64,000 nt of DNA from an uncultured Candidatus Saccharibacteria bacterium (GTDB taxonomy: Bacteria; Patescibacteriota; Minisyncoccia; Phycocordibacterales; JAKAEA01). Below the pieces are notes generated by a model, which was not told where the DNA came from, searched no databases, and saw nothing but the letters and a program-made list of their open reading frames with translations. The stretch covers positions 4,261 through 68,260 of the forward strand of contig CAZNZK010000003.1 in assembly GCA_964577595.1 (NCBI GenBank), read 5' to 3'. Of the stretch, positions 1-60,214 are shown in pieces; within the stretch, counting starts at the first letter, position 1, and each line of letters opens with the position of its first letter. The position numbers were made by a program, and so were the translations under genes.

Positions 1-50
1 TCTCGTTAGGCTCATTCAAGGGAGGAATCCGCTGAAATAAAAAATAGATA

Positions 51-82
51 AAAATAAAATCACCTTTTGGTGATTTTATTTT
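51..82. terminator. Perfect 14-bp inverted repeat (aaaataaaatcacc/tttt/ggtgattttatttt), bidirectional terminator-like hairpin
   Basis: Perfect stem with A/T runs on both sides. Confidence 0.5.
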
Positions 83-331
83 ACTTCGAACCATTATCCG
101 CAAGGTGGACATGGTCATAGAAAGTTGGAACTCACTCCATCTGTGGGTTTTAGAGGCGTCTGAGGCGATTTTAGGGGTTCGGGAATTGAAAATAGCCTGA
201 TAAATCGGCGATAAAACCGGTCATCGGGGTCACAAGATGAGATTGGAATAATATCTAGTCTAGGTATAGACTGAACGTATCTTCAGAAGGAAAAGAAAAG
301 AATACTGTCCGGATAACAATTAAAATTATAA

Positions 332-589
332 ATGAATATTATGTTTGATTTTAGCAAGAAAATACAAAGACTAAGTAAGACAAAAATTCGAGCGGTCTCC
401 GATGTCGACCTTATTGTTGCGCTCGAAAAATTAAAACTTCTTGAAAAGATAAGTAAGGGTGAGATTAAGTGCATATACACGGGAGAGGTAATTACGTTAG
501 AAAACTTGCATGCAGTCATACCAACTGATGATGGGTTTAAATTTGTATCAGAAAACGCAGTAATTAGAGGGTTGGTCTCACCGGAATGA
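332..589 (+). CDS. hypothetical protein (85 aa), first gene of a two-gene island operon
   Basis: ORF whose stop overlaps the next start (ATGA at 586-589). No recognisable motif. Confidence 0.4.
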   Translation: MNIMFDFSKKIQRLSKTKIRAVSDVDLIVALEKLKLLEKISKGEIKCIYTGEVITLENLHAVIPTDDGFKFVSENAVIRGLVSPE

Positions 590-1665
590 TAAAAACCATC
601 TGGACATCACTGCATACTGTTTGGCATTTCTCTGAGCCTTATTTGGCTGCGCTGGCCGTATTGGGTGGGGCTTTGTATTTTCTCAGTCTGCTTATGGATG
701 TAGTGCCCAGACTTGCTTCGCTTAAGGCAAAATTTTTTGCTTGGTTTGCAAATACTTACAAGTATGAAGTATTCAAGCGTAAGGCCATAAGCAGTGATAT
801 TGAGGCTCTCGTCAATTCTATTGTTTTTAGTTTACAGGATGAATTGCCCAAGGGGTGGATAAAAAGAGCGTCGATTAAATGGGTAAGAGACATAACAAGA
901 AAAGACCAAGCGCCTCTGAATGAAATTATTTTAAGAATGAGGCCTATCGAAGACCAAAATACAAATCTGTTGTATAGCGTTCACGCTTTCTTCGGCGAGG
1001 CTTTGTTTCCTAAAATAGGCCATATTATTCCACTAAGTAAGAAAAACGCTGCCACGTTACTAATTACTCGACGAGCACTAGAAAGTCGAGGACCTTCTTT
1101 TAGGGACTTATTTGAGGAGCAATTATTAGAGAAAGCAATCCAGGAAAACTCTGATGTTCTAAGGGACTTTTCAAAATTCGAGAAATTAGACAATAAGGGA
1201 TTTTTCACTAGTGCATTGTTAAGAGAGGTGCATACCCTAACAAATCTGGCAAAATTTAATCCAATAAGAACCACTATCGATAATGAAATTAACTCGGTAA
1301 CAAAGCATATGCTGGACTTTTCGGGTGCACTTACTGGCCCTTCAGTTATTCCTGAGCCACTATGGTCCAGAAAAGGCCCGATAACAAATTACGCCTTTTT
1401 ATTGGTTGCAAGACCAGATAATAACGGCTCAAAAAATTATGTCCTGAGAGCAAAACAGAGATTTATAGAGGGTGTAACTAGACTCTATGTTCTCGCTAAG
1501 GAAGAGCAGCGTGATTTTGCTAAACAAGTAATAAAAGAGATAGGCAAATTGACTGAATGCAACCTTGAAGAAACATTTGAACTCAATAAAGACTACAGGT
1601 GTAATCAGGGTGGTCTGGGCGCAATCTTGACGGTAAGTCAGGGAGAACAACCCGCTACGAATTAA
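586..1665 (+). CDS. hypothetical protein (359 aa) with N-terminal transmembrane helix
   Basis: Long ORF translationally coupled to 332..589. N-terminal hydrophobic segment AALAVLGGALYFLSLL. No recognisable catalytic motif. Confidence 0.55.
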   Translation: MIKTIWTSLHTVWHFSEPYLAALAVLGGALYFLSLLMDVVPRLASLKAKFFAWFANTYKYEVFKRKAISSDIEALVNSIVFSLQDELPKGWIKRASIKWVRDITRKDQAPLNEIILRMRPIEDQNTNLLYSVHAFFGEALFPKIGHIIPLSKKNAATLLITRRALESRGPSFRDLFEEQLLEKAIQENSDVLRDFSKFEKLDNKGFFTSALLREVHTLTNLAKFNPIRTTIDNEINSVTKHMLDFSGALTGPSVIPEPLWSRKGPITNYAFLLVARPDNNGSKNYVLRAKQRFIEGVTRLYVLAKEEQRDFAKQVIKEIGKLTECNLEETFELNKDYRCNQGGLGAILTVSQGEQPATN

Positions 1666-2260
1666 AGGTTTTCCAAGCAATACGCACGTGTAGGATAAAT
1701 AAGACAGGGTTTGATACTGCATAACAGTATAAAAAGCAGTATAAGATTCACTTGTTAAACAGGCTAATAACAGGCGATAGCTCGCTGCTGAACAGTGTAA
1801 TAACAGCGTAAAGGCAACCGATTAAAACGGTGAATAATCGGTTAGGGAACGGTTTGAACTATCTTCCCAGCTAAACTAGCTAATAACTGGTGCTAAATAG
1901 CGAAATCGACAACGGAAAGGTTACCAAATAAATTGGTGGGTAATTGACTGAGGAACAGGCCAAGAACAGGCATCCGCTGCAACTGCTCATCAGTTAAATA
2001 ACAGTTAAAACCCGTGCCGCACACTTGAATTAAGGTCCTATTTGTGGGACTATTGGCTTACAACTAAATATGGAGAGTAGCCTAAACTAGCAAGCGATTG
2101 CTAGCATGGTGAAAAAGTCAGGACGTGCATAAAGAACCCATCATGGGGTCGCATGTCCTGCCACATCGGGAAACTGGTGTGAGTGGCTCCGGCTACTACC
2201 CGTGGTGGGCTTTTTGTAAGCTTGCTACGGGTATCTATAAGCTAAGTAGCTATAAATACC
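1666..2260. repeat. 600-bp non-coding region with repeated (A/T)AATAACAG / GAACAG motifs and several perfect hairpins; candidate origin/regulatory region or ncRNA
   Basis: No ORF of 60 aa or more on + strand. The 5-mer AACAG occurs 8 times; four copies sit in ...ATAACAG... context. Hairpins include aaccgatta/taatcggtt, ctagcaa/ttgctag and caggacgtgc/gcatgtcctg. A GC-rich stem plus T-run (..cccgtggtgggctttttgt) lies just before the next gene. Confidence 0.4.
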
Positions 2261-3094
2261 ATGTTCAATTTTTTTCATAGCGTTTTGTCTGCAGTGGGAA
2301 TGTTTATTATTTCTGTTGGCTTATTTTTTACAGGCTCTAGTGGGGTATCAAACAAAGTTGTTAATTTATCTGTTGTAAGCACTTCTACACAACAAATTGA
2401 GGTAGTTGCTACATCAAGTCAGAAAAGTGAAATTGGAGTTGATTCTTCTGTAAAAACTCCACCACAGCCTATCTCTAATACTATTTCAGTGCCACCACCA
2501 GTGGTTCCTAAAGAGACTCTAGTAAACTATCTACCTGCTTATCTAGGTTTTCTCAATTCGCAAAAAGATTTTTTTACTAAACAAAGAAGTATTCTAGACC
2601 CCTTAATCTCTGATGCACAAAGTAAATCAAATTCTTACGACATACAGGCAAGTTATTTTAGTGGGTTAACGGGCCAAGGACTTGCTGAACAGATATATCA
2701 AAGTTTTTCCAAATTAAGTAACGATACATCGCAATTATATATAGGTTCAATAGCGTCATTAAAAGCAAGACAGTCTCTAGACGATGATGTTATTAATACG
2801 ATTAATACTGAAGAAAACAATGATTCAGGATTGTTTTTATCGTCTGATGAATACACGACTAAATATAATTCAAGTAAAACTTATCTTAGTAATCAATACA
2901 ATCTAATTATGGGTGAGATAAGTGAAGCTGGAAATGCATATTTTGCACAAGATAAGGGGGCTAGAGATAACGAGGCTCAGCTACTCGGTCAATTACAGTC
3001 TTTGACCACAGCTCCTAGTCCGGTTTATTTACAACCGCCAACCCCGAAAATAACTATCTGTAACTTTTCAGGAAACGCTTTTATTTGCAACTAG
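2261..3094 (+). CDS. hypothetical membrane-anchored protein (277 aa), S/T/Q-rich
   Basis: ORF with an N-terminal TM segment (FIISVGLFFTG) followed by low-complexity Ser/Thr/Asn-rich sequence. Confidence 0.5.
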   Translation: MFNFFHSVLSAVGMFIISVGLFFTGSSGVSNKVVNLSVVSTSTQQIEVVATSSQKSEIGVDSSVKTPPQPISNTISVPPPVVPKETLVNYLPAYLGFLNSQKDFFTKQRSILDPLISDAQSKSNSYDIQASYFSGLTGQGLAEQIYQSFSKLSNDTSQLYIGSIASLKARQSLDDDVINTINTEENNDSGLFLSSDEYTTKYNSSKTYLSNQYNLIMGEISEAGNAYFAQDKGARDNEAQLLGQLQSLTTAPSPVYLQPPTPKITICNFSGNAFICN

Positions 3095-3107
3095 TTTTTT
3101 ACAAAAT

Positions 3108-3383
3108 ATGGGAGACTTAATTAAGGTGGGAATTGTTATTGTTTTAGCAAACTGGTTTAAAATATTAGTAGCAATATTACTTATTGTGGCGTGTGTTTAT
3201 TTGGCCAATATAAACAGTTCGCTAGGTGAATTAGACTATCAACTTATTCGGGTCGGAAATATGGCTAGCTACACTAGCGATAATACGTCTGGTATAGATG
3301 ATATCAAGTCAGATGTTTCCGATATAAAAGACAGCGTGTCTAATATAGAATATAGACTACAATATCCATCAATTCTTCGTTAG
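3108..3383 (+). CDS. hypothetical small membrane protein (91 aa)
   Basis: ORF with one strong TM helix (VGIVIVLANWFKILVAILLIVACVYL). Confidence 0.4.
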   Translation: MGDLIKVGIVIVLANWFKILVAILLIVACVYLANINSSLGELDYQLIRVGNMASYTSDNTSGIDDIKSDVSDIKDSVSNIEYRLQYPSILR

Positions 3384-3418
3384 TTGATTGAAAAAACCGT
3401 AAAAGAGAGTAAGTTTAG

Positions 3419-4168
3419 GTGACGGATATGGCACCTCTTGAACGCCTCAGTCCCAGCAATTTTTTTGCAGTCTGCGATGTTGCTATGGACATAAGAGAGA
3501 AACTACAAATGGTTATTGACAACACCGTTGTTATTCCCGTTATGCGGACAATCATAAGGGGTCAATTTAGTATTCTCCTACCCGCAAAAAGTGTAGAGCT
3601 AGTGGACAATTATTGTGAGCTACGATTGACCGCTATAAATTATATAAAGAGCCAAGGTTGTATTAAGGAAACGATACTACTTCGGTCTCATCAAAGATGG
3701 AGTGATAACATTAAAATAATTGTCGATAAGGACGCCTTTAATAAGTTCTATGACCAATTAATAAAGGTCTATGAAGTTAGGGTTGTTGAGCCAAATAAGA
3801 AACAAAAACAACAAGAACAAGGTGTTGTTTCTGGTCTGGAACAAAGTCCATTGCCCGTAATCTCCTACAATTCAATTACTGGTATGGGAATGACAAACAC
3901 AAAGAAATTTAAATTTAAAGACCCTAAACCTGAGTATAGGTTGTTCAAGCTACTCTTTGAGGGTTTAAACAAAAAAGTGTATCGTTATGATGTTTTAGTT
4001 GCAATTTGTTTTTATGAGGATGGTGAAGACCAAGACCCTGCTCGTCATGGTGCAGAAACTGAAAAAATCAATGATGTGGTCAAAAAAATAAGAGAAAAAA
4101 CTGGCTTAACCAGAACGCAGCTGGTAATTAATGGCGGCAATTTAACTTTGTTGGGTAGCAAACAATAA
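3419..4168 (+). CDS. hypothetical protein (249 aa), Lys-rich C-terminal half, possible DNA-binding/regulatory protein of the island
   Basis: ORF only. Basic C-terminal region (KKFKFKDPKPEYRLFKLLFEGLNKKVYRY). No confident domain assignment. Confidence 0.45.
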   Translation: MTDMAPLERLSPSNFFAVCDVAMDIREKLQMVIDNTVVIPVMRTIIRGQFSILLPAKSVELVDNYCELRLTAINYIKSQGCIKETILLRSHQRWSDNIKIIVDKDAFNKFYDQLIKVYEVRVVEPNKKQKQQEQGVVSGLEQSPLPVISYNSITGMGMTNTKKFKFKDPKPEYRLFKLLFEGLNKKVYRYDVLVAICFYEDGEDQDPARHGAETEKINDVVKKIREKTGLTRTQLVINGGNLTLLGSKQ

Positions 4169-4369
4169 ATCTACCAAAACTACCCCAAACTTACCCCAAA
4201 CCACCCCTAAATTTGATTGCTTGAGAAAGATAGGCTTAATCCAGCCTATTTTTTATTTGGTTAAATCTTGAACGTGATAAGTCTTTTGTTTACTTGGTGG
4301 GTTGTCCAACAGGGCGTTCAAGAACCTGCCAAGTGAAGAGTAGATTTATTAGTTAAGTCTATTTAATTT

Positions 4370-4591
4370 ATGGAAGGACAAATTACATGGAAAGCTGATG
4401 TGAAAAATTATCTTCTCATCACAATCAAGCTTGAGAATAGTGATAGTGGCAAGACGTATGTTGTCAAAGGATTTAAGAATGAGCCTCATTGGAGGCAACT
4501 CAAGATTGGAGACCGCATTGGTGGACTGGTTTGGTTTAACGAAAAGAAAAAAATCATCAGTGCCGATTCCCCAATCTATCCTCTAGATTGA
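4370..4591 (+). CDS. hypothetical protein (73 aa)
   Basis: ORF with a TGA stop that overlaps the next ORF. Confidence 0.35.
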   Translation: MEGQITWKADVKNYLLITIKLENSDSGKTYVVKGFKNEPHWRQLKIGDRIGGLVWFNEKKKIISADSPIYPLD

Positions 4592-4596
4592 TTTTT

Positions 4597-4833
4597 ATGT
4601 TGAGTATAGAAGAGTGTAAAAAGTATCTCGGTAATAATCTTACTGACAAGCAAATCGAAAATTTGCGAGGTGCTTTATATACTCTGGTCGAAAATATACT
4701 TGACGATTATTTTGCTCATTATGCTAGCATTGAGTCATGCAAAAATCTCTCATCTACTGCAGAGTCTCTTCTCAGCGTCAAAAAATTGAAGGACACGGTC
4801 TTGAAAGCCAGGAACACCGCTGTCAACAATTAG
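4597..4833 (+). CDS. hypothetical small protein, weak resemblance to phage gp6-like head-tail connector N-terminus; may be a remnant
   Basis: ATG at 4597 (MLSIEECKKYLGNNLTDKQIENLRGALYTLVENILDDYF). Overlaps the recombinase start by about 97 bp in another frame, so it may be degenerate. Confidence 0.25.
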   Translation: MLSIEECKKYLGNNLTDKQIENLRGALYTLVENILDDYFAHYASIESCKNLSSTAESLLSVKKLKDTVLKARNTAVNN

Positions 4834-6311
4834 CCGACCAGAAAGGTTACGAGGTAGAAAAAGTATTTAGAGATAGCTTCACTGGAAAAGGTGATTTCTT
4901 TGCCCGCCCAGCAATGGCTGAGCTATTGCGCTATCTCGATGCTCATCCTAGAGATTCCTACGTGGTTATTTTTGATGACTTGAAGCGGTTCGCCAGAGAT
5001 GTGGTCTTTCACTGGAAGCTAAAACAAGAATTTAGTTCCCGTGGCATCAAACTCGAATGTCTCAATTTTACCTTTGAAGATACGCCTGAGGGGAGATTCA
5101 TTGAAACAATTATGGCGGGGCAGGGGCAGCTTGAACGTGAACAAAACCGCAGACAGGTGCTGCAGAAAATGAAAGCGAGGTTGGAGGCGGGGTATTGGTG
5201 TTTTCCAGACTTGCCAGAAGGCTACGAGTTTATTAAAAGCCCTGTGCATGGCAAATTACCCGTTCTGGTGCAGCCTAAGGCGGCAATAGTGAAAGAGGCG
5301 CTTGAGAGTTTTGCCTCAGGGAGATTAATGGAGCAGGAGGATGTGCGAAAATTCCTAGAGCAAAAAGATATACGAGACGGTAAGCCCGTTTATCTTGATT
5401 ATGTAAAGAGGATGCTTATGAGAATCTTCTATACGGGCTATATCGAATACCCACTCTGGGAGGTGAGTAGGAGACAGGCTAGACACGAGGCCTTAATTGA
5501 TTCGGCAACATATGACCGCATTCAAGAGCGATTGAATGGCAAAACCACCACTCATACTAAAAATTATCTCAATCCTGATTTTCCACTACGCAGCTTTGTT
5601 CTTTGCTCGACATGTAAACAACCAATGACGGCAAGCTGGAGCACTGGTAGCAACGCCAAATTCGCTTATTACCGCTGTAAAACAAAAGGGTGCATAGAAC
5701 GGAACAAGAGTGTGGCTAAGGGGGTTATAGAGGGTGAGTTTGAGTCAATTCTAGGCAAAATAAATCCAAGCAGTGAAGTTCTGAATCTGACCAAAGCAAT
5801 TATTGCGGATGTGTGGCAGAAGAAAATTGCTAACCGTGTAAATGAGAAGAAAGAAATAGAGCAGAAGATTCAGAGATTGATTTCCGAAAAGGAAAAACTA
5901 GTTGGACTAGCTCTGAGGGCTGCTGACGACGGAGTGAGAATGGCATACGAAGAAAAAATATCGGAAATAGTCGGAATAAGCAGAGTTCTAAATAATTCTC
6001 TAGAGTCCTTTGATAGACATGTCCCAAACGTTGAAACCGCATTGAATATCGTATTCGACTTCTTAAAAAATCCTTTGAAACAATGGCAGAAGGGGAATAT
6101 CCATACCAAAAAGCTAGTTCTAAGACTAGTGTTTGAGCAGAATTTGGCATACAGCCGAAAAACTGGGTTTGAAACTGCTATTTTGTCGCTACCTCTAAGG
6201 GTATTTGGCCTCCCAGAGGCTCAAAAATCGATGCTAGTGGAGATGCGCGGAATCGAACCGCGGTGCAGGAGGGATTCAATGGATGATTCTACAGCGTGTA
6301 GCTGCCTTTGA
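4737..6311 (+). CDS. large serine recombinase / integrase
   Basis: N-terminal resolvase catalytic domain (MQKSLIYCRVSSQRQ..SLESQ). Recombinase domain present. Zinc-ribbon (CSTCKQPM...YYRCKTKGC) and coiled-coil C-terminus. The last about 25 codons are antisense of the tmRNA T-arm (..MRGIEPRC..), i.e. the ORF crosses the attachment junction. Confidence 0.9.
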   Translation: MQKSLIYCRVSSQRQKIEGHGLESQEHRCQQLADQKGYEVEKVFRDSFTGKGDFFARPAMAELLRYLDAHPRDSYVVIFDDLKRFARDVVFHWKLKQEFSSRGIKLECLNFTFEDTPEGRFIETIMAGQGQLEREQNRRQVLQKMKARLEAGYWCFPDLPEGYEFIKSPVHGKLPVLVQPKAAIVKEALESFASGRLMEQEDVRKFLEQKDIRDGKPVYLDYVKRMLMRIFYTGYIEYPLWEVSRRQARHEALIDSATYDRIQERLNGKTTTHTKNYLNPDFPLRSFVLCSTCKQPMTASWSTGSNAKFAYYRCKTKGCIERNKSVAKGVIEGEFESILGKINPSSEVLNLTKAIIADVWQKKIANRVNEKKEIEQKIQRLISEKEKLVGLALRAADDGVRMAYEEKISEIVGISRVLNNSLESFDRHVPNVETALNIVFDFLKNPLKQWQKGNIHTKKLVLRLVFEQNLAYSRKTGFETAILSLPLRVFGLPEAQKSMLVEMRGIEPRCRRDSMDDSTACSCL

Positions 6312-6650
6312 TCGGCGCATCACTTTTTGCAAAGTGGTACCCCATTTAAGCCTTACGGGTAAGAAAGAAGCAAAATTCCCGGAAGGCCGAGTCGCTTATT
6401 TCGGCAGGCGGCGCGACAGGCGCTTGCTATATTCCGAGTATGAGCATCGGGATGTGACTGATCGGACATCAATCACGCGATGTCGCTTAGGCCGTAGCGT
6501 AAGCGAATGCAGGGATCCCCTTAAAATAAGGAGAAGCTACTGCACCAAGTGCGTTTTTGGCACTTAAAAGGTTTGTGGCAGATTAAGGAGTTACCACAGC
6601 TCCACGTCGCTCATCCAAAGAGCAAACTCCTGTCTAGGCCGATCATCCCC
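6238..6650 (-). ncRNA. ssrA: tmRNA (ssrA)
   Basis: On the minus strand: 5' GGGGATGATCGGCCTAGACAGG... and 3' ...CGCGGTTCGATTCCGCGCATCTCCA (T-arm plus acceptor strand pairing with 5' GGGGATG). CCA is not encoded; the next bases are CTA. Adjacent to smpB. A candidate tag frame ends ...AFAYATA-TAA, but this is uncertain without a covariance model. Confidence 0.75.
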
Positions 6651-6788: not shown

Positions 6789-7250
6789 CTACCTATCGCT
6801 AAATTCGCGGCGAATATTTCGCTCGGTGTCGCGCTTTTTGGTGGCTTGGCGCTTATCAAATTGTTTCTTGCCACGCGCCAAGGCGATATCCATCTTCAAC
6901 TTCCGGCCTTTATTATACACTGAAATAGGTACGATTGTCAACCCTTTTTGAGAGCCACTGCCAACGCCGGCCAGGCGCTTGAGTTCGGCTTGCGTAAGCA
7001 GAAGCTTGCGAGCGCGGTCACTACCAGCGTCGCTATTGCCGCCAGCAATATTGCCGGGTTGGTAGACCGGAATATCCATTTTTTCCAGCCAGGCTTCACC
7101 AGCGCGCAGGAGTACGTAGGCACCATCTAGGGAGCCGCGGCCAGCTCGGAGGGATTTTACTTCCGCACCCAAGAGTTCTATCCCAGCCTCAAAATGCTCC
7201 ACGAATTCGTAGTTGAAGCTCGCTTTGCGGTTGAAAATAAGGCTAGCCAT
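6789..7250 (-). CDS. smpB: SsrA-binding protein SmpB
   Basis: Translation MASLIFNRKASFNYEFVEHFEAGIELLGAEVKSLRAG... matches the SmpB family. Adjacent to tmRNA. Confidence 0.9.
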   Translation of the reverse strand: MASLIFNRKASFNYEFVEHFEAGIELLGAEVKSLRAGRGSLDGAYVLLRAGEAWLEKMDIPVYQPGNIAGGNSDAGSDRARKLLLTQAELKRLAGVGSGSQKGLTIVPISVYNKGRKLKMDIALARGKKQFDKRQATKKRDTERNIRREFSDR

Positions 7251-7317
7251 TGGTTGTTTTTGCGCGCGTATGTCTATCCTAGCAAATCTCGGGCTAATAT
7301 TGTAGAATGATGCTCCT

Positions 7318-9357
7318 ATGAAAGAACCTATCTCTGACGAACAACTTGATGAAATTCAATTGGAAGAGGAGGAGACTGATGCGGAAATAGAAAACCAAGA
7401 AGAAGAAAACGCCGAGCCGCAACAGCCTGTGCCGGGCTCGCAATTGCCGCCACCTCAAAAAAGCGGCCCACGCCCGCCAAATATGCGGCCAACCAATCAA
7501 TTCATCCGCAACCTGCTTACTGGTTTGTTCATCCTGCTTCTTATCGTGAGTGTGTATTCGCTCATTGTCGGCAACACTGGCTCCAAAAGTACACAAATTC
7601 CACTCTCGCAGGTTGCTACTGATATTACTGCCGGAAAGGTCACGGAAATTGACGTCAACGGTGATAATTTGACCGTGCATTACGACACCACGAATACATT
7701 AGTGAAAGATTCGCAGAAAGAAGACCAAAGCGCGCTTACTGATCAGCTTTCTTCACTCGGTGTGCCTACAAAAAATATTTCCGCGCTTACCATTAACATT
7801 GAAAGCCCAAGTGGCTGGAGCTATTGGCTGAATAATGTGGTTCTGCCATATATTCTGCCGCTGGTAGTGCTTTTGGCGCTGGCTTGGTTTATCACTCGGC
7901 AAATGCGTGGCGCGGGTATGCAAGCATTTACGTTCGGGCAGTCTAAGGCGCGCATTATTTCACCCGACGACACTAAGCAACGTGTCACGTTTAAAGATGT
8001 GGCCGGTGCAAAGGAGGCAAAGGAAGAATTAATGGAGATTGTGGATTTTTTGAAGAATCCGAAAAAGTTTATTGAGATTGGCGCGCGTATTCCGAAAGGC
8101 ATTCTTCTTATGGGGCCGCCAGGAAGTGGTAAGACGCTTTTGGCCCGGGCTGTCAGTGGGGAAGCACGCGTGGCCTTCTTCTCTATTTCCGGTTCTGAAT
8201 TCGTGGAAATGTTCGTGGGTGTTGGTGCCTCGCGTGTGCGCGACCTTTTCAAGCTGGCCAAACAAGCCGCTCCAGCCATTATTTTCGTAGATGAAATTGA
8301 CGCAGTAGGCCGGGTGCGCGGCACTGGCGTGGGTGGTGGCAACGATGAGCGCGAGCAAACCCTCAATCAAATTCTTGTTGAAATGGACGGCTTTGAGCCG
8401 AATGAAAAGGTCATTGTTATGGCCGCCACCAACCGGCCCGATGTTCTTGACCCAGCCCTTCTGCGCCCTGGTCGCTTTGACCGTCGCGTGGTTATTGATT
8501 TACCCGACAGACAGGATCGTTTTGATATTTTGCGCATTCATTCGCGCATGAAGCCTTTTGCTGAAGATGTGAACTTGGAGGTAATTGCTGAGCGCACGCC
8601 GGGCTTTAGCGGTGCCGACCTTTACTCGCTTATGAACGAAGGCGCTATTTTGGCGGCTCGCGAAAATCGCACCAAGGTTTCCCAATACGACCTTATCCGT
8701 TCTATTGAAAAGGTGATGCTTGGACCGGAGCGTAAGAGTCACATTTTGAGCCGCAAAGAAAAAGAAATTACCGCTTATCACGAAGCCGGTCACGCGGTAG
8801 TTGCTTCTGTTTTGCCACACGCTGACCCTGTTCATAAAATTTCTATTATTTCTCGTGGCCGAGCCGCTGGCTACACGCTGAAGCTCCCGCTTGAGGACCG
8901 CAAGCTCCAGTCGCGTCGCGAATTTTTGGACGACATTGCCATGTCACTTGGCGGTTATGTCACCGAAAAAATGATTTTTGGCGACATCACCACCGGCCCT
9001 TCCAACGACCTCCAGGTTTCCACGGCCATGGCTCGCGACATGGTTACTCGCTATGGCATGAGCGACAAGCTTGGCGCTATTGCTCTTGAAGGTGCCGACG
9101 GCCGGGCCCTTTTTGGCCGCGGCGTTGAGGATAGGGAGCACTCCGAAAAAGTCGCCAGCGACATTGACGGCGAAGTTTCTCGCATCATGAGCGAAGGCCT
9201 CCAGCGCGCCGAAGACATCATTAAAAAGAATCGCAAGCTCCTGGACACTATCGCCAGGCGCCTCATTGCGGTGGAAACTATTGAGCGCCAGGAATTTGAC
9301 CAAATACTCGTCGTTCATGGTATCCAGCCCAAGAAAAAAATAGAAGGAAATGTCTAG
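7318..9357 (+). CDS. ftsH: ATP-dependent zinc metalloprotease FtsH
   Basis: N-terminal TM segments, AAA+ Walker A GPPGSGKT, second region of homology, and the HEAGH zinc motif. Confidence 0.95.
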
Positions 9358-51051: not shown

Positions 51052-51125
51052 AGCGGGGTAGTGGAACGGCACCACGTCAGGCTCATAACCTGAAGAAATA
51101 GGTTCAACTCCTGTCCCCGCCACCA
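51052..51125 (+). tRNA. initiator tRNA-fMet (anticodon CAU), CCA encoded
   Basis: Acceptor AGCGGGG/CCCCGCC with an unpaired 1:72 (A.C). U8 and A9 present. D-arm GTGG-AACGGCA-CCAC. Anticodon loop CTCATAA, the initiator-type loop. T-arm ATAGG-TTCAACT-CCTGT. Discriminator A plus CCA. Confidence 0.7.
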
Positions 51126-51198
51126 GATTTTTGGTACTATCACAATAGTTTTTAAATGTCGGAGTAGCTGTCTTGGCAGGGCAGGAAAGGACAAAAAC

Positions 51199-51271
51199 GT
51201 CGGAGTAGCTCAGTTGGTAGAGCACAGGACTCATAAGCCTGGGGTCGTGGGTTCGATCCCCACCTCCGACA
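51199..51271 (+). tRNA. tRNA-Met (CAU anticodon; elongator, or possibly tRNA-Ile2/lysidine type)
   Basis: Acceptor GTCGGAG/CTCCGAC fully paired. D-arm GCTCAGTTGGTAGAGC. Anticodon loop CTCATAA. T-arm GTGGG-TTCGATC-CCCAC. Confidence 0.7.
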
Positions 51272-51284
51272 CATTTGCTTTTTG

Positions 51285-51712
51285 TAAGAAAATAGGGTAT
51301 ATTATCAGTGGGACCGAGGGTTCGGCTGAAATTGTAGGGTATGGATATCCTCCAGCTATTCCCTTCGAATCTGTCCCAGTCGGGTCTACTTTTCATGGAG
51401 GTAGACATGTTCCACTCACTTCTTTCCGTATCAGGCTCCTGTGCAACGCAGGAGGGGACCGCCCGGTCCCAAACGAGTTTCAGTTGCTCCTCAAAACAGG
51501 AGGAACTGAAAGCGGTTCACCGGAATCGCGCACTTCGGATGCGTAAGGCCGCAGAGGGTCGCTCCTCGCGCCTTACTCAACGTTTCGGTGTGCGGATGCC
51601 GGCGGACATGGAAATGTCGGTTGTCGCAACATTCTGACAACTGACACGCCAGGAGGGGGAATAAGGGGGTTTCGTGCAGAATCGATGTGCACGAGACCCC
51701 TATTTTTATGGT
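51285..51712 (+). ncRNA. candidate structured ncRNA (about 430 nt), family unknown; ends in a strong intrinsic terminator
   Basis: No protein-like ORF; the track ORFs here have non-protein composition. Many perfect local helices: ctcctg/caggag, gggacc/ggtccc, tttcagttgctcctc..gaggaactgaaa, gtaaggc..gccttac, gacat-GGAA-atgtc, ggttgtc..gacaacc. Terminal nested hairpin gggggtt-tcgtgca...tgcacga-gacccc is followed by TATTTTTAT. No RNase P P4 or SRP domain IV motifs were seen. Confidence 0.35.
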
Positions 51713-51891
51713 TGATTTTTTTGACACACAGAAGTATGATTTAATTGGGTGGAAAGATTGCGCGCGCAGTCTACTATCCAGGTTTCTTACTAAGGAGAGA
51801 CAGGCATGAGGTCTTCTCTTACTTCACACAATCAGGGGGAGCTTCGTCGCTCCTCTTTCTTTTTGTCAAAAATCTGATATATTTTAAAAAT

Positions 51892-51965
51892 GCGCTCGTG
51901 GTGTAGCCTGGTAGCACGTTCCCCTGTCACGGGAAAGGTCGTGGGTTCAAATCCCATCGAGCGCG
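51892..51965 (+). tRNA. tRNA-Asp (anticodon GUC)
   Basis: Acceptor GCGCTCG/CGAGCGC. Anticodon stem TTCCC/GGGAA with loop CTGTCAC. T-arm GTGGG-TTCAAAT-CCCAT. Discriminator G. Confidence 0.8.
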
Positions 51966-51968
51966 CCC

Positions 51969-52664
51969 ATGATGTTATTGCTAATTGGCTTGGCTGCGGG
52001 TATTGCTACTTTTATCGGTGGCTCGCTGGCTCTGCGCTTGCGTGATCGTTTGCATTTGATTCTTGGCTTTACGGCCGGTGCCATTATTGCCGTGGCCTTT
52101 TTTGACTTATTGCCGGAAGCACTTTCACTTGGGGAAAAAATCTACAGCCCACTTGCCATCACTACAGTACTGGCACTCGGCTTCTTGTTATACATGTTGC
52201 TTGATCGGGCTCTTTTGAGCGCACGCATGGGTACCCGTGGACATGTGGGTGCGGCGAGCTTGACGATGCATAGTTTTTTGGATGGCTTGGCTATTGGTCT
52301 CGCATTTCAAGTTTCCAGCGCTGTCGGCATGGTAGTGGCAATTGCGGTGTTGGTGCATGATTTTTCCGATGGTATCAATACGGTTAATTTGAGCATGACG
52401 GGTGGGGCAAGTGCAAAAATTGCTCGGCGCTGGCTTATTGCCGATGCGGTAGCGCCTCTGGTTGGGATCGGTGCCACCTTGCTCGTTTCTGTACCACAAC
52501 AATCACTCGCCCTCATTTTGGCGCTTTTTTCAGGGTTCTTTTTATATATTGGTGCCAGCGAGCTATTGCCGGAAAGCTATCATAATCATCCACGTCTCTG
52601 GACGAGCGTGGCCACCGTCCTCGGTATGCTCGTGCTTTTAATCGCCATCCGGGTTGCTGGTTAA
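51969..52664 (+). CDS. ZIP-family metal (zinc) transporter (ZupT-like)
   Basis: HSFLDGLAIG and VLVHDFSDG metal-binding TM motifs. 8 TM segments. Confidence 0.8.
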   Translation: MMLLLIGLAAGIATFIGGSLALRLRDRLHLILGFTAGAIIAVAFFDLLPEALSLGEKIYSPLAITTVLALGFLLYMLLDRALLSARMGTRGHVGAASLTMHSFLDGLAIGLAFQVSSAVGMVVAIAVLVHDFSDGINTVNLSMTGGASAKIARRWLIADAVAPLVGIGATLLVSVPQQSLALILALFSGFFLYIGASELLPESYHNHPRLWTSVATVLGMLVLLIAIRVAG

Positions 52665-52692
52665 TTTCTATTAATTTCTAAATAATCCACCA

Positions 52693-53928
52693 ATGAAAAT
52701 TCTGTACATCATTACTCAGGGCGAATGTGGCGGGGCGCAAAAGAACGTTCTTGATTTGGCCATTGGTGCGCGGCAGGCAGGGCATCAAGTGGTTGTGGCT
52801 ACTGGCCGGCAAGATACGGTGGGTAGCCAATGGCTTTTCAATGAATTGCGACCCTTAGGCTTCCGTGGCGCACCCGCTACCCGGCTCGGCGGCCTTCGTC
52901 GCGAGCAATCAATAAAAAACGTACCCGATCTCGTTGTTCTCTCAGCTCTTAGCCGAAGTATTCATCCTCTTCGGGAATTAATCGCATTTTTCCAGATATG
53001 GCGGCTGGTGCGGCGTCTACAACCCGATATTGTTCATTTACATAGCAGTAAAGCGGGAAGCGTTGGGGCGGTGGCCGCCAAACTAGCTTTTACGGGTACA
53101 AAGGTTGTCTACACTGTGCATGGTTTTGTTACTGCCGAGCCGCTTTCTTGGCCGGCAAAACTTTTTTATCGTGTTTCCGAATACGTCGCTTCTTTTTTCC
53201 GTGATCTTGTTATTACTGTTTCCGCCCGTGACCTAGAAATCGGTATGAAGGAAAAACTCATTCACAGTCCGAGCGTGGTTATTTATAACGGTCTTGATCA
53301 GGCAAAAAAATCCGACATCCTGCCTTTTTCGCAAGCCCGGGAAGCGCTCGGCCAACTTTTGCCGGAAGGGGTGAGTTTTGCTAGTAACGAGCGGGTCATT
53401 GGTGTTGTGGCTAATCTCTATCCTAGTAAGGGCATTACGCACCTCCTGGATGCTATGGCGCTTTTGCGGCGTAACAGCACGCCCGACGACGATGCGAGGC
53501 AGGTACCCGTTGTTATAATTGGCGACGGCGATTTGCGCTTGGCACTTATAGCTAAAACTGAAGCACTTGGCCTTGCCTCACAGGTTTTCTTTGTTGGCGC
53601 GGTGGACGATGCTTATCGCTATCTTTCCGCTTTTAATCTGATGGTTTTGCCGTCGGTCAAAGAAGGGTTTCCCTATGCACTTTTGGAAGCCTTACTTGCG
53701 GGCAGGCCTTTTATTGCCACTCGTGTGGGCGGTATTCCCGAATTGCTTGATGTGTTGCCGCCCCACGTTGGTCGCTTGGTGCCACCAGGCGATCCGCGCG
53801 CCCTGGCCGCCGCTCTGGCAAAATTTCTGCACGAAACGCCACCTACTGCCGTCCGCTTGCCGGAGCTTTTTAGCCTGGAACACATGCGCGCCTCCACTTT
53901 CGCGGAGTATAAAAAACTGCTGGCATAA
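52693..53928 (+). CDS. GT4-family glycosyltransferase (GT-B)
   Basis: C-terminal EGFPYALLEALLAGRPFIATRVGGIPELL (E-X7-E motif). Confidence 0.8.
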   Translation: MKILYIITQGECGGAQKNVLDLAIGARQAGHQVVVATGRQDTVGSQWLFNELRPLGFRGAPATRLGGLRREQSIKNVPDLVVLSALSRSIHPLRELIAFFQIWRLVRRLQPDIVHLHSSKAGSVGAVAAKLAFTGTKVVYTVHGFVTAEPLSWPAKLFYRVSEYVASFFRDLVITVSARDLEIGMKEKLIHSPSVVIYNGLDQAKKSDILPFSQAREALGQLLPEGVSFASNERVIGVVANLYPSKGITHLLDAMALLRRNSTPDDDARQVPVVIIGDGDLRLALIAKTEALGLASQVFFVGAVDDAYRYLSAFNLMVLPSVKEGFPYALLEALLAGRPFIATRVGGIPELLDVLPPHVGRLVPPGDPRALAAALAKFLHETPPTAVRLPELFSLEHMRASTFAEYKKLLA

Positions 53929-53972
53929 AGAGAAAAAATATATTACTATGCAGGCTTAATAAACAGATTTAT

Positions 53973-54048
53973 TAGTAAACCGCCGTTGTAGCTGTTTTGG
54001 TAGATAGTGCTAGTAAATTGCCGTTGTAGCTGTTTTGGTAGATAGTGC
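53973..54048 (+). repeat. two tandem 38-bp degenerate copies of the 5' half of the downstream tRNA-Thr gene
   Basis: agtaaa(c/t)(c/t)gccgttgtagctgttttggtagatagtgct appears twice, then agtaaattGCCGTTGTAGCTCAGTTGGTAGAGCAC (the real tRNA). The copies replace CTCAGTTGGTAGAGCAC with CTGTTTTGGTAGATAGTGC. Confidence 0.8.
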
Positions 54049-54056
54049 TAGTAAAT

Positions 54057-54132
54057 TGCCGTTGTAGCTCAGTTGGTAGAGCACGTCATTGGTAATGACG
54101 AGGTCGACAGTTCAATCCTGTCCAACGGCTCC
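54057..54132 (+). tRNA. tRNA-Thr (anticodon GGU), CCA encoded
   Basis: Acceptor GCCGTTG/CAACGGC. Anticodon stem CGTCA/TGACG with loop TTGGTAA. T-arm GACAG-TTCAATC-CTGTC. Discriminator T plus CCA. Confidence 0.85.
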
Positions 54133-54168
54133 ACGTCAGCGCATTTTTTATGGTATACTTTTAGTCAT

Positions 54169-55053
54169 ATGCACCCGTCTGAAAACCAGCCTGTCCCTCT
54201 GCCACCCATAGGCCAGCTTGCGCCCGTGGTTGAGCTTGTTGAACGCATGTGGCGTCGTTTCTCGCGTCTCTTTTCCGGCATGTTTCCCTGGATGGTGCTT
54301 TCTTGCATTGGCAGTATTGCTTTAGGAGTAGTGAAGGCGAAAGGCACGCTTCCTGGAACTTTGCCTGTTTGGGTAATTCTTTTAATAGCTCTTGCGGGAG
54401 GCATTATTACTCTTATTTCTTATTTGGCACTTATCAGAATAACGTCGGAAGCGGAAAAGGACCCTAAAGACATTCTTGGTAATGGTCGGGTTTCGCTCAG
54501 GCTTTTTTTCCCATACATCTGGCTCATTATAATTCAAGGCCTCATTCTTTTGGGTGGCTTTATTTTTCTCATTTTTCCCGGCTTCATTTTCAGCATCTAC
54601 ATGACCATTCTGGTTTTTGTGTTCGTGGTTGAGGATAAACGCGGCCTGGATGCTATTACGCGTTCCTGGGGCTATATTGCTGGCCGCTGGTGGGAGACAC
54701 TTTGGCGTATGTTTGTGGCTGTTTTCCTTATGGCCATAGCAACCCTTTTGCTTGGTATTATTCTTTCACTCAGTTTTGGCGGCTCCGCCAACTGGGGCAT
54801 GACCATAATTCAAAACGTCGTGGAAGCGTTCTTTTTTGGTCCTCTTCTACTCTGCTATCTTTTTGAGCTGTATAACGACCTGCGTATCACCAAGCCCGCA
54901 TCTGACGCGGTTGCCGAAAAAACGGCAAAGCTCTGGCTGGTTATTTTCCTGATTATTGGTATTATGCTAGCGCTCCTCATTGCTTTTGGGGCCGTGACGC
55001 AAACGGCCGCTCATGGCTATCGGGAGTTTCCAAGAGTGCATAGTTCTCAATAA
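54169..55053 (+). CDS. hypothetical polytopic membrane protein
   Basis: Track ORF 54073.. begins inside the tRNA. Trimmed to MHPSENQPVPLP... at 54169. At least 6 TM segments. Confidence 0.55.
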   Translation: MHPSENQPVPLPPIGQLAPVVELVERMWRRFSRLFSGMFPWMVLSCIGSIALGVVKAKGTLPGTLPVWVILLIALAGGIITLISYLALIRITSEAEKDPKDILGNGRVSLRLFFPYIWLIIIQGLILLGGFIFLIFPGFIFSIYMTILVFVFVVEDKRGLDAITRSWGYIAGRWWETLWRMFVAVFLMAIATLLLGIILSLSFGGSANWGMTIIQNVVEAFFFGPLLLCYLFELYNDLRITKPASDAVAEKTAKLWLVIFLIIGIMLALLIAFGAVTQTAAHGYREFPRVHSSQ

Positions 55054-55068
55054 TTTTTTAATTTTTAC

Positions 55069-55102
55069 GTCGCCAGCGTAGCTGTTTTGGTAGAATGCAC
55101 TA
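55069..55102 (+). repeat. degenerate copy of the 5' half of the downstream tRNA-Thr(CGU) gene
   Basis: cgccagcgtagctgttttggtagaatgcacta versus the tRNA 5' gccagcgtagctcagttggtagagcac. Same CTCAGTTGG to CTGTTTTGG change as at the other tRNA-Thr locus. Followed by TATATAAT. Confidence 0.75.
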
Positions 55103-55109
55103 TATAATC

Positions 55110-55185
55110 GCCAGCGTAGCTCAGTTGGTAGAGCACCGCTTTCGTAAAGCGGGGGTCGTCGGTTCAATCCCGACCGCTGGCTCCA
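55110..55185 (+). tRNA. tRNA-Thr (anticodon CGU), CCA encoded
   Basis: Acceptor GCCAGCG/CGCTGGC. Anticodon stem CCGCT/AGCGG with loop TTCGTAA. T-arm GTCGG-TTCAATC-CCGAC. Discriminator T plus CCA. Confidence 0.85.
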
Positions 55186-60171: not shown

Positions 60172-60214
60172 AGAAGCTTGAAATAAAGCTATTTTTACAG
60201 TATCGTAAGGTCAT

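What the first reader, a model, noticed from the sequence alone, without database searches (positions are those of the whole stretch)
1666..2260. 600-bp coding desert in the island with AATAACAG iteron-like repeats and multiple perfect hairpins
No plausible ORF. The pentamer AACAG occurs 8 times, four of them as (A/T)AATAACAG. There are several perfect stem-loops (aaccgatta..taatcggtt; ctagcaa..ttgctag; caggacgtgc..gcatgtcctg) and a GC stem plus T-run just before the next gene. This is consistent with a replication origin/partition or recombination-directionality site of the element, or a structured ncRNA. The island's putative DNA-binding protein (3419..4168) could be the cognate binder.
Basis: seen in the sequence. 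Interest (0 to 1): 0.5.

Follow-up and report, generated by a model that had tools for sequence, protein, structure and literature searches.

The report
LOOT RNA leader plus AACAG repeat array
The 600-base gap holds a copy of LOOT, a known structured RNA of unknown function, with its own promoter at the head of the gene row that ends in the integrase of a small mobile element in a Patescibacteria genome; in front of it lies a real repeat array that occurs in this element only.

Summary
The gap 1666-2260 has no credible ORF. AACAG occurs 8 times on one strand against about 1 expected (0/5000 shuffles), mostly as doublets 11 nt apart.

The region has two unrelated parts.

(1) 2060-2232 is a LOOT RNA (Rfam RF03000, 81 bits against a cut-off of 46). 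The "GC stem plus T-run" is the 3' strand of a conserved long-range helix that pairs with the top of P2.

Across about 150 LOOT loci, mostly Patescibacteria MAGs and groundwater metagenomes, LOOT has its own promoter and a conserved 5' leader. It points at the next gene in 88 of 97 assessable cases. About half of the loci of 5 kb or more carry a large serine recombinase. I read it as a cis-acting attenuator-like leader of mobile-element operons, which is an inference.

(2) 1717-2004 holds six 22-nt units (CTGnnnAACAGnnnAAnAACAG) around a perfect palindrome, ending 20 bp before the LOOT promoter. The array is absent from every homologous element and every other LOOT locus. It is probably a set of protein-binding sites; the protein is unknown. 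An origin or partition role is not supported.

The parts
1717..2004 (+). Array of six 22-nt units, consensus CTGCTnAACAGnnTAATAACAG, at 1717, 1752, 1785, 1868, 1948 and 1983. Each is an AACAG doublet with 11-nt periodicity. All lie on one strand, with irregular spacing of 35, 33, 83, 80 and 35 nt.
   Evidence: 0/5000 shuffles. Absent from all related loci.
1816..1843 (.). Perfect palindrome AACCGATTA-N10-TAATCGGTT in the middle of the array. No T-run follows it on either strand.
   Evidence: (I6). My rough estimate of the chance expectation is 0.02 per 600 bp (inference).
2025..2053 (+). Predicted LOOT promoter: -35 TTGAAT (2025-2030), 17-nt spacer containing TG at 2045-2046, -10 GACTAT (2048-2053). 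The predicted start is near A2060.
   Evidence: A -35/-10 pair ending 20-29 nt before CCTAAAC is the best-scoring match in about half of the 27 genome and viral LOOT loci, including L193 and the window. Not shown experimentally.
2060..2070 (+). Conserved 5' leader motif ACAAYTnAATA (here ACAACTAAATA). It lies outside the Rfam model.
   Evidence: Used as a search pattern, it returned 120 metagenome loci (more exist).
2079..2197 (+). LOOT RNA core (Rfam RF03000). P1 is 2080-2082/2108-2110 plus 2087-2093/2098-2104. The A-rich linker follows. P2 lower stem is 2119-2128/2151-2160. P3 is 2162-2169/2174-2181 (GAAA loop). P4 is 2182-2187/2192-2197.
   Evidence: 81.4 bits, gathering score 46.4, model positions 1-121. 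Covariation.
2129..2147 (+). Segment X, the top of P2 (AUAAAGAACCCAUCAUGGG). It is the 5' strand of the long-range helix X:Y.
   Evidence: 16 pairs, 93.6% of cells paired in 110 sequences, 15 pairs with changes on both sides, 40-43% when slid.
2199..2217 (+).
2218..2232 (+). Segment Z (AAGCUUGCUACGGGU). It pairs with 2198-2212, which excludes X:Y, and puts the T-run in the hairpin loop.
   Evidence: 15-bp hairpin in the minimum-energy fold; 22/26 loci at -8 kcal/mol or better, p = 4e-4 against a cross-locus null, with compensatory differences between loci.
2261..3094 (+). orf277, the first gene downstream of LOOT on the same strand. It has an N-terminal membrane helix and matches no known family.
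586..1665 (+). orf359, directly upstream. It has N-terminal membrane helices and a C-terminal domain with weak Alba-like fold matches. Its homologues in L193 and L195 are also followed by LOOT.
4737..6311 (+). Large serine recombinase, the last gene of the row headed by LOOT. It abuts the tmRNA gene (6235-6650, - strand).

Best explanation
The gap is the control region of a low-GC integrative element of about 6 kb. The element runs from about window 100-300 to the tmRNA gene and sits in a Patescibacteria (Parcubacteria/Paceibacterota-like) genome. The region has two parts.

(a) LOOT RNA, about 2060-2232. It is transcribed from its own promoter and sits at the head of the row orf277-orf91-orf249-orf73-orf81-integrase. 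I propose that it acts in cis as an attenuator-like leader:
- The top of helix P2 (segment X) can pair with segment Y, whose T-run then follows a long G+C-rich helix. That resembles a terminator.
- Alternatively Y pairs with the downstream segment Z, which leaves P2 intact and lets the transcript continue.
- Which state forms would depend on an unknown factor bound by the conserved core (the P1 loop CCUAAAC/GCAUGG, the A-rich linker, and P3 and P4).

Shown: family membership, the helices and their covariation, the orientation bias, and the link to serine recombinases. Inferred: the promoter, termination, the switching and the cis role.

(b) The AACAG array and its central palindrome, 1717-2004. 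These are DNA sites for a sequence-specific protein, placed just upstream of the LOOT promoter. The 11-bp doublets suit a protein that binds head-to-tail to tandem repeats. This part is an acquisition of this element alone. Its role is inferred only.
For: LOOT membership.

Folding: z = -7.4.

Helices: P1, P3, P4 and X:Y covary in sequence-based alignments of 26 and 110 sequences. Y:Z is supported.

Promoter and 5' leader.

Orientation: the next gene is on the same strand in all 26 genome and viral loci examined (window included), by eye from ORF maps, and in 88 of 97 metagenome loci where an ORF could be called. The upstream neighbour is 50:50.

Cis signature in a subset of loci:
- An exact copy of 9 nt or more of the P2 5' strand sits at the start codon in 9/27 and 12/104 loci, against a null of about 1%.
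- The duplex between the P2 3' strand and the downstream region is -14 kcal/mol or better in 19% of loci, against 3% in the null.

Link to serine recombinases:
- 14/27 genome loci and 31/59 metagenome loci of 5 kb or more carry one.
- Those upstream of LOOT are divergent in 25 of 26 cases. Those downstream are on the same strand in 12 of 12.

Synteny: orf85-orf359-LOOT-...-integrase is shared with L193 and L195.

Array: enrichment, unit structure. The motif positions are conserved between units while the spacers are not (by eye). The array ends 20 bp before the -35 box.

Host: the nearest named FtsH homologues are from Parcubacteria, Paceibacterota and Patescibacteria.
Against: Against the cis role of LOOT:
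- Rfam files LOOT as an sRNA gene, and its own promoter plus a T-run fit a stand-alone RNA equally well.
- Downstream genes are very diverse, so no metabolite-type signal is suggested.
- 9 of 97 loci have an opposite-strand neighbour.
- In the window itself there is no complementarity between P2 and the start region of orf277: -7.6 kcal/mol, which is typical of the null.
- X:Y and the P2 lower stem may coexist as a pseudoknot rather than alternate, and X and Y are each partly self-complementary.

Against a function for the array:
- No comparative support exists, because it occurs in one element population only.
- No DNA-binding family is recognised in any island protein.
- The spacing of the units is irregular.
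Confidence: 0.5

Rival explanations
1. LOOT is a stand-alone trans-acting small RNA of the mobile element, with its own promoter and the X:Y helix plus T-run as its terminator. The neighbouring gene is merely co-oriented. The AACAG array is unrelated to it.
For: Rfam type is 'Gene; sRNA'. A promoter is predicted directly upstream in many loci. The T-run after Y is nearly invariant. Downstream genes are very diverse. A few loci lack segment Z.
Against: The orientation bias towards the next gene is strong, while the upstream neighbour is 50:50. Y:Z spans the T-run and covaries. Copies of the P2 5' strand sit at start codons in 10-30% of loci. The gap to the next start codon is short, with the start codon at a median of about 170 nt after the LOOT start.
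Confidence: 0.3
2. The AACAG units are iterons or a centromere-like site. They would make the region the replication origin or partition site of the excised element.
For: Six 22-nt direct repeats on one strand plus a perfect palindrome. Relatives L193 and L195 encode a RepL/HTH_36-type protein. One other LOOT locus (L218) also has loosely repeated units in a 738-nt gap upstream of LOOT (by eye; not confirmed).
Against: No Rep, ParA, ParB or relaxase family is found in the island. The spacing is irregular. GC of 1666-2057 is 0.41, higher than the flanking island genes at 0.36-0.39, so there is no AT-rich unwinding stretch. The array is absent from the homologous elements, including those with the RepL-like gene.
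Confidence: 0.12
3. The array has no function. It is a decaying local duplication, or the remnant of an insertion between orf359 and the LOOT promoter.
For: It is present in a single element population only. Blocks 1752-1812 and 1948-2012 look like a segmental duplication (by eye). The closest relatives have only about 80 nt at this junction.
Against: The six units share the motif positions but not the spacers or flanks. All lie on one strand with a strict 11-nt sub-period. A perfect 9-bp palindrome survives in the middle.
Confidence: 0.25

Closest known systems
LOOT RNA motif (Rfam RF03000; from the Weinberg et al. 2017 comparative screen, PMC5737381; added to Rfam as a metagenome-based family, PMC7779021)
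   Same: Full-length match well above the gathering score. It has the same four hairpins, the same conserved CCUAAAC/GCAUGG loop and the same A-rich linker.
   Different: Three features lie outside the 121-nt Rfam model: the conserved 5' leader ACAAYTnAATA, the X:Y long-range helix to a 3' segment, and the alternative Y:Z hairpin. The context found here is Patescibacteria genomes and serine-recombinase elements with a co-oriented downstream gene. I found this in none of the papers that mention LOOT. The 2017 supplement was not available to me.
Transcription attenuators of the ON type, in which the sensor sequesters the 5' strand of the terminator (for example adenine riboswitches, or BglG/LicT RAT-terminator leaders). 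From established knowledge.
   Same: A structured 5' domain whose internal segment (X) is also the 5' strand of a helix followed by a T-run. A competing alternative pairing exists. The element sits directly before a co-oriented gene.
   Different: No ligand or binding protein is known. Downstream genes share no function. The competing segment Z lies after the T-run, not before it. Termination was not tested.
Tandem direct-repeat operators of OmpR/PhoB-type winged-helix regulators, such as the PHO box (most conserved motif CTGTCAT in E. coli, PMC4415409; 7-bp direct repeats with a 4-bp spacer for M. tuberculosis PhoP, PMC4832192)
   Same: Seven-base repeats with a 4-bp spacer and 11-bp period. 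Read on the minus strand, the units are CTGTTAT-N4-CTGTT, one base away from CTGTCAT.
   Different: No OmpR/PhoB-type domain was detected in the island. The orientation is opposite to that expected for activating the LOOT promoter. The resemblance may be coincidence.
Iteron arrays of theta-replicating plasmids and parC-type centromeres (established knowledge)
   Same: Multiple direct repeats of about 22 bp on one strand, next to a palindrome, in a non-coding stretch of a mobile element.
   Different: No Rep or Par gene, irregular spacing, no AT-rich stretch, and no conservation in related elements.

Membership tests
LOOT RNA (RF03000) | Covariance-model score at or above the curated gathering score, over the whole model | tested here: met
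   81.4 bits against 46.4, model positions 1-121 of 121, E = 1e-15 on the local search.
LOOT RNA (RF03000) | P1 with the conserved CCUAAAC / GCAUGG internal loop, followed by an A-rich linker | tested here: met
   Window 2081-2087, 2105-2110 and 2112-2116. These positions are invariant in alignments of 26 and 110 sequences.
LOOT RNA (RF03000) | Hairpins P2, P3 and P4, kept by compensatory changes among homologues | tested here: met
   P3 is 94.7% paired with 8/8 pairs showing changes on both sides. P4 is 88-90% paired. The P2 lower stem is 78.6% paired on a sequence-based alignment.
LOOT RNA (RF03000) | Acts in trans as a small RNA (the Rfam type) | not testable with these tools
   Context argues for at least a cis component, but no transcript data are available.
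Riboswitch / transcription attenuator | Conserved structured domain directly upstream of a co-oriented gene | tested here: met
   88 of 97 metagenome loci with a callable ORF, and all 26 genome and viral loci examined, window included. The upstream neighbour is 50:50.
Riboswitch / transcription attenuator | Mutually exclusive pairings that involve a terminator or the ribosome-binding region | tested here: inconclusive
   X:Y and Y:Z both covary and share Y. Pairing of the P2 3' strand with the start region occurs in 15-20% of loci but not in the window. Termination was not measured.
Riboswitch / transcription attenuator | Downstream genes share a pathway that points to a ligand | tested here: not met
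   The genes are membrane proteins, restriction-modification enzymes, proteases, zinc-ribbon proteins and unknowns.
Iteron-type replication origin | Several direct repeats of about 17-22 bp in regular helical phase | tested here: inconclusive
   Six 22-nt units with an internal 11-nt period, but spacings of 35, 33, 83, 80 and 35 nt.
Iteron-type replication origin | Cognate initiator (Rep) gene in the element | tested here: not met
   No Rep family in Pfam, PHROGs or PADLOC for any island protein. The orf249 model gave only a weak RepE match, E = 0.28.
Iteron-type replication origin | Adjacent AT-rich unwinding stretch | tested here: not met
   GC is 0.41 in 1666-2057 against 0.36-0.39 in the neighbouring island genes. 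DnaA boxes were not searched for.
Partition centromere (parC / parS type) | Repeat array next to genes for a partition NTPase and its adaptor | tested here: not met
   No ParA, ParM or ParB family in the island.
OmpR/PhoB-type tandem operator | Direct repeats of about 7 bp with a 4-bp spacer (11-bp period) | tested here: met
   Three exact AACAG-N6-AACAG doublets and one with a single mismatch; two further degenerate units.
OmpR/PhoB-type tandem operator | A winged-helix effector protein that binds them | tested here: inconclusive
   No Trans_reg_C hit. The C-terminal domain of orf249 modelled below pLDDT 50. Fold matches of the N-terminal domain are weak: E of 0.03 or worse, TM below 0.5.
Intrinsic terminator | G+C-rich stem immediately followed by a T-run | tested here: inconclusive
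   The pattern scan finds one at 2196-2217. However, that strand and the T-run belong to the conserved X:Y helix and also to the Y:Z hairpin. Function was not tested.

The most novel reading that the evidence does not exclude
LOOT is a new class of cis-acting sensor RNA, a riboswitch or a protein-dependent attenuator, specific to mobile elements of Patescibacteria. It would gate transcription and, in some elements, translation of cargo and integrase operons through the X:Y / Y:Z / P2 exchange. In this element an added array of AACAG operators would couple that promoter to a dedicated DNA-binding protein.
Probability: 0.3. Interest if true: 0.7.

Novelty: new member of a known kind. Interest (0 to 1): 0.45.

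Why it matters
LOOT is an orphan RNA family with no known function, and in the papers I could search it appears only in database and method descriptions. This window places a full-length copy in a complete and very small (about 6 kb) integrative element of a Patescibacteria genome.

The comparison with about 150 other loci gives three testable leads:
- LOOT has its own promoter.
- It points at the next gene.
- It travels with large serine recombinases and carries an unmodelled 3' helix with an alternative partner.

If LOOT is a switch, it would be one of the few regulatory RNAs known for mobile elements of these poorly understood bacteria.

The AACAG array is of local interest only, unless a binding protein is found.

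Tried and rejected
- Whole region as one structured RNA: rejected. 1666-2057 folds no better than shuffles and is not homologous to any other locus.
- Other Rfam families in the region: none near threshold.
- Similar DNA in phage or plasmid collections: no match.
- Search for the AACAG doublet architecture in viral contigs: only unrelated 11-nt tandem repeats, several of them coding.
- AACAG arrays near homologues of orf359 or orf249, or upstream of 148 other LOOT copies: none.
- orf359 as a replication initiator: rejected. It is membrane-anchored, with only a weak Alba-like C-terminal domain and no sequence match to solved structures.
- orf249 as a recognisable DNA binder: unresolved.
- Attachment-site repeats between the left end of the island and the tmRNA region: none of 12 nt or more. 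This is expected for a serine recombinase.
- My first automatic definition of segment Y gave meaningless Y:Z statistics. I redid it with alignment-anchored coordinates.
- Supplement of the 2017 paper that describes LOOT: not held.
- Exact look-up of orf277: failed because the public copy differs at two bases.

Full report
**The observation**

The stretch 1666-2260 lies between orf359 (586-1665, +) and orf277 (2261-3094, +). It holds only short, implausible ORFs.

AACAG occurs eight times, always on the + strand, between 1723 and 2004. Dinucleotide-preserving shuffles of the region give a mean of 1.0, and none of 5000 reaches 8. The exact doublet AACAG-N6-AACAG occurs three times against 0.002 expected. 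No other 300-nt stretch of the window has more than three copies.

The repeats form six 22-nt units, consensus CTGCTnAACAGnnTAATAACAG, at 1717, 1752, 1785, 1868, 1948 and 1983.

Two details of the finding need correcting. Exact AATAACAG occurs three times, not four. The stem 2119-2128/2151-2160 contains one G-T pair.

The sequence is identical in an independently assembled contig. L190 has two mismatches in 7400 nt, both inside orf277.

**The 3' part is a known RNA family**

Rfam finds a full-length LOOT RNA (RF03000) at 2079-2197 on the + strand. It scores 81.4 bits against a gathering score of 46.4.

The segment 2058-2240 folds far better than shuffles (z = -7.4). The segment 1666-2057 does not: z = -1.6 on the + strand and -2.7 on the - strand.

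The papers that mention LOOT list it only as a metagenome-derived family or as a test case for structure prediction. None gives a function. The supplement of the 2017 paper was not available.

**Where LOOT occurs**

A pattern scan of one genome per species gave about 27 true LOOT copies. Almost all are in Patescibacteria MAGs: Saccharibacteria, Levy-, Gottesman-, Uhr-, Parcu-, Paceibacteria and others.

A second scan of metagenomes used the leader motif found here.

The window's host is of the same kind. The nearest named FtsH homologues, at 72-77% identity, are from Parcubacteria, Paceibacterota and 'Patescibacteria group'.

**Anatomy beyond the Rfam model**

A sigma-70-like -35/-10 pair ending 20-29 nt before CCTAAAC is the best match in about half of the 27 loci. 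In the window it is TTGAAT-17-GACTAT with an upstream TG, at 2025-2053.

The predicted start falls on a conserved motif ACAAYTnAATA, here 2060-2070.

Downstream of P4, segment Y (2199-2217, CCCGUGGUGGGCUUUUUGU) pairs with segment X, the top of P2 (2129-2147). In a sequence-based alignment of 110 copies, this helix has:
- 16 pairs;
- 93.6% of cells paired;
- 15 pairs with changes on both sides;
- only 40-43% pairing when the partner columns are slid.

The 26-sequence set agrees.

Y can also pair with a segment Z after the T-run. In the window this is 2198-2212 with 2218-2232, a 15-bp hairpin in the minimum-energy fold. Z is present in 22 of 26 loci and differs between loci in a compensatory way.

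X:Y and Y:Z cannot form together.

**Evidence on how LOOT works**

The next gene is on LOOT's strand in all 26 genome and viral loci examined, window included. The same holds in 88 of 97 metagenome loci with a callable ORF, whereas the upstream neighbour is 50:50.

The downstream genes are unrelated to one another.

In 9 of 27 and 12 of 104 loci, an exact copy of 9 nt or more of the P2 5' strand lies at or just before the start codon. The null rate is about 1%. In those loci the P2 3' strand could mask the ribosome-binding region. The window does not have this feature.

A large serine recombinase lies within the fetched DNA in 14 of 27 loci and in 31 of 59 loci of 5 kb or more. It is divergent when upstream (25 of 26) and co-directional when downstream (12 of 12).

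I conclude that LOOT belongs to serine-recombinase mobile elements and most likely acts in cis at the head of an operon. I favour attenuator logic: X:Y plus the T-run as the off state, and P2 plus Y:Z as the on state. The sensor is unknown, and termination and switching are inferred. A stand-alone sRNA remains a serious rival.

**The element in the window**

GC is 0.36-0.44 from about position 100 to 6300. It is 0.50 to the right of that and 0.53 in the 1.5 kb to the left, which L190 supplies.

The element carries orf85, orf359, the non-coding region, orf277, orf91, orf249, orf73, orf81 and a 524-aa serine recombinase. The end of the recombinase ORF overlaps the 3' end of the tmRNA gene.

Homologues of orf359 at 56% identity in L193 and L195 keep the order orf85-orf359-LOOT-small ORFs-recombinase. 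There, only about 80 nt separate orf359 from LOOT, and there are no AACAG repeats.

**The AACAG array**

The array is absent from every related element and from all other LOOT loci, which have 0-2 AACAG in the 400-450 nt upstream.

The upstream gap is 394 nt here, against a median of 82 nt.

Four properties are compatible with a protein-binding array:
- The units share motif positions but not spacers.
- All units lie on one strand.
- They surround a perfect palindrome at 1816-1843.
- They end 20 bp before the -35 box.

The 7+4+7 layout with an 11-bp period is that of tandem sites for head-to-tail dimers such as OmpR/PhoB proteins. Read on the minus strand, the units are CTGTTAT-N4-CTGTT, close to the E. 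coli PHO-box motif CTGTCAT (PMC4415409; 7-bp repeats with a 4-bp spacer in PMC4832192).

No such protein could be identified. orf249 has no family match. Its C-terminal domain did not model, and its N-terminal domain gives only weak matches to nucleic-acid-binding folds.

An origin or partition function is not supported. There is no Rep or Par gene, the spacing is irregular, there is no AT-rich stretch, and the array is not conserved.

A non-functional duplication cannot be excluded.

**Verdict**

The finding is real. Its main structured part is a new copy of a known but unexplained RNA family, seen in an unusually informative context. The repeat array is an element-specific addition of unknown function.

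Noticed in passing
window 6235-6650 (-) and 4737-6311 (+): The tmRNA gene has the predicted tag AKNALGAVASPYFKGIPAFAYATA. The serine recombinase ORF runs 77 nt into the tmRNA 3' end from the opposite strand, so the element appears to have inserted at or in the tmRNA 3' end. SmpB lies just beyond, at 6789-7250 (-).
   Followed up: partly
window 586-1665 (+); model mb2c22fc65dbd: orf359 models well (pLDDT 82). It has N-terminal membrane helices and a C-terminal domain whose top 25 PDB matches are nearly all Alba-family or Alba-like (Rpp20/Rpp25) DNA/RNA-binding proteins, though weakly (E about 0.01, TM to target up to 0.79). It sits directly before LOOT in three elements, but many LOOT loci lack it.
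   Followed up: partly
L193 4502-4514 and 4642-4654: The 13 nt GTCGGATAAGGCA of the LOOT P2 5' strand recur exactly at codons 1-5 of the downstream ORF. The same kind of copy lies next to the start codon in about 10-30% of LOOT loci.
   Followed up: yes
L218 3873-4611: Another LOOT locus has a 738-nt gap upstream of LOOT with loosely repeated units of about 100 nt (...TTCACCCTTTCTT...). The gap lies between LOOT and a divergent MerR-like gene followed by a serine recombinase 43% identical to the window's. The repeat finder did not confirm a clear family.
   Followed up: partly
L230 (365-411 +, 1568-1614 -) and L325 (two copies about 1.35 kb apart, same strand): Some contigs carry two LOOT copies close together, so an element can have more than one.
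   Followed up: no
L197 about 7250-7370: In a more distant relative of the element (orf359 homologue at 40% identity, no LOOT), the 813-nt gap after the homologue seems to contain a decayed N-terminal fragment of a serine recombinase gene. This is by eye from the sequence.
   Followed up: no
L204 725-773, L205 4663-4711, L208 about 4975, L209 87-135 (viral contigs): Non-coding tandem arrays of 11-nt units containing AACAG (for example AACAGGCTAAA, AACAGTATAAA) occur in unrelated viral contigs. They have the same period and core as the window's doublets, with no other similarity.
   Followed up: no
window 41-80: A symmetric hairpin flanked by A-runs and T-runs (aaaataaaatcaccttttggtgattttatttt) lies close to where GC drops. 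It looks like a two-way terminator near the left end of the element.
   Followed up: no
window 51052-55185: A loose cluster of tRNA genes on the + strand (two Met, Asp, two Thr), with tRNA-Gln further on at 60214.
   Followed up: no
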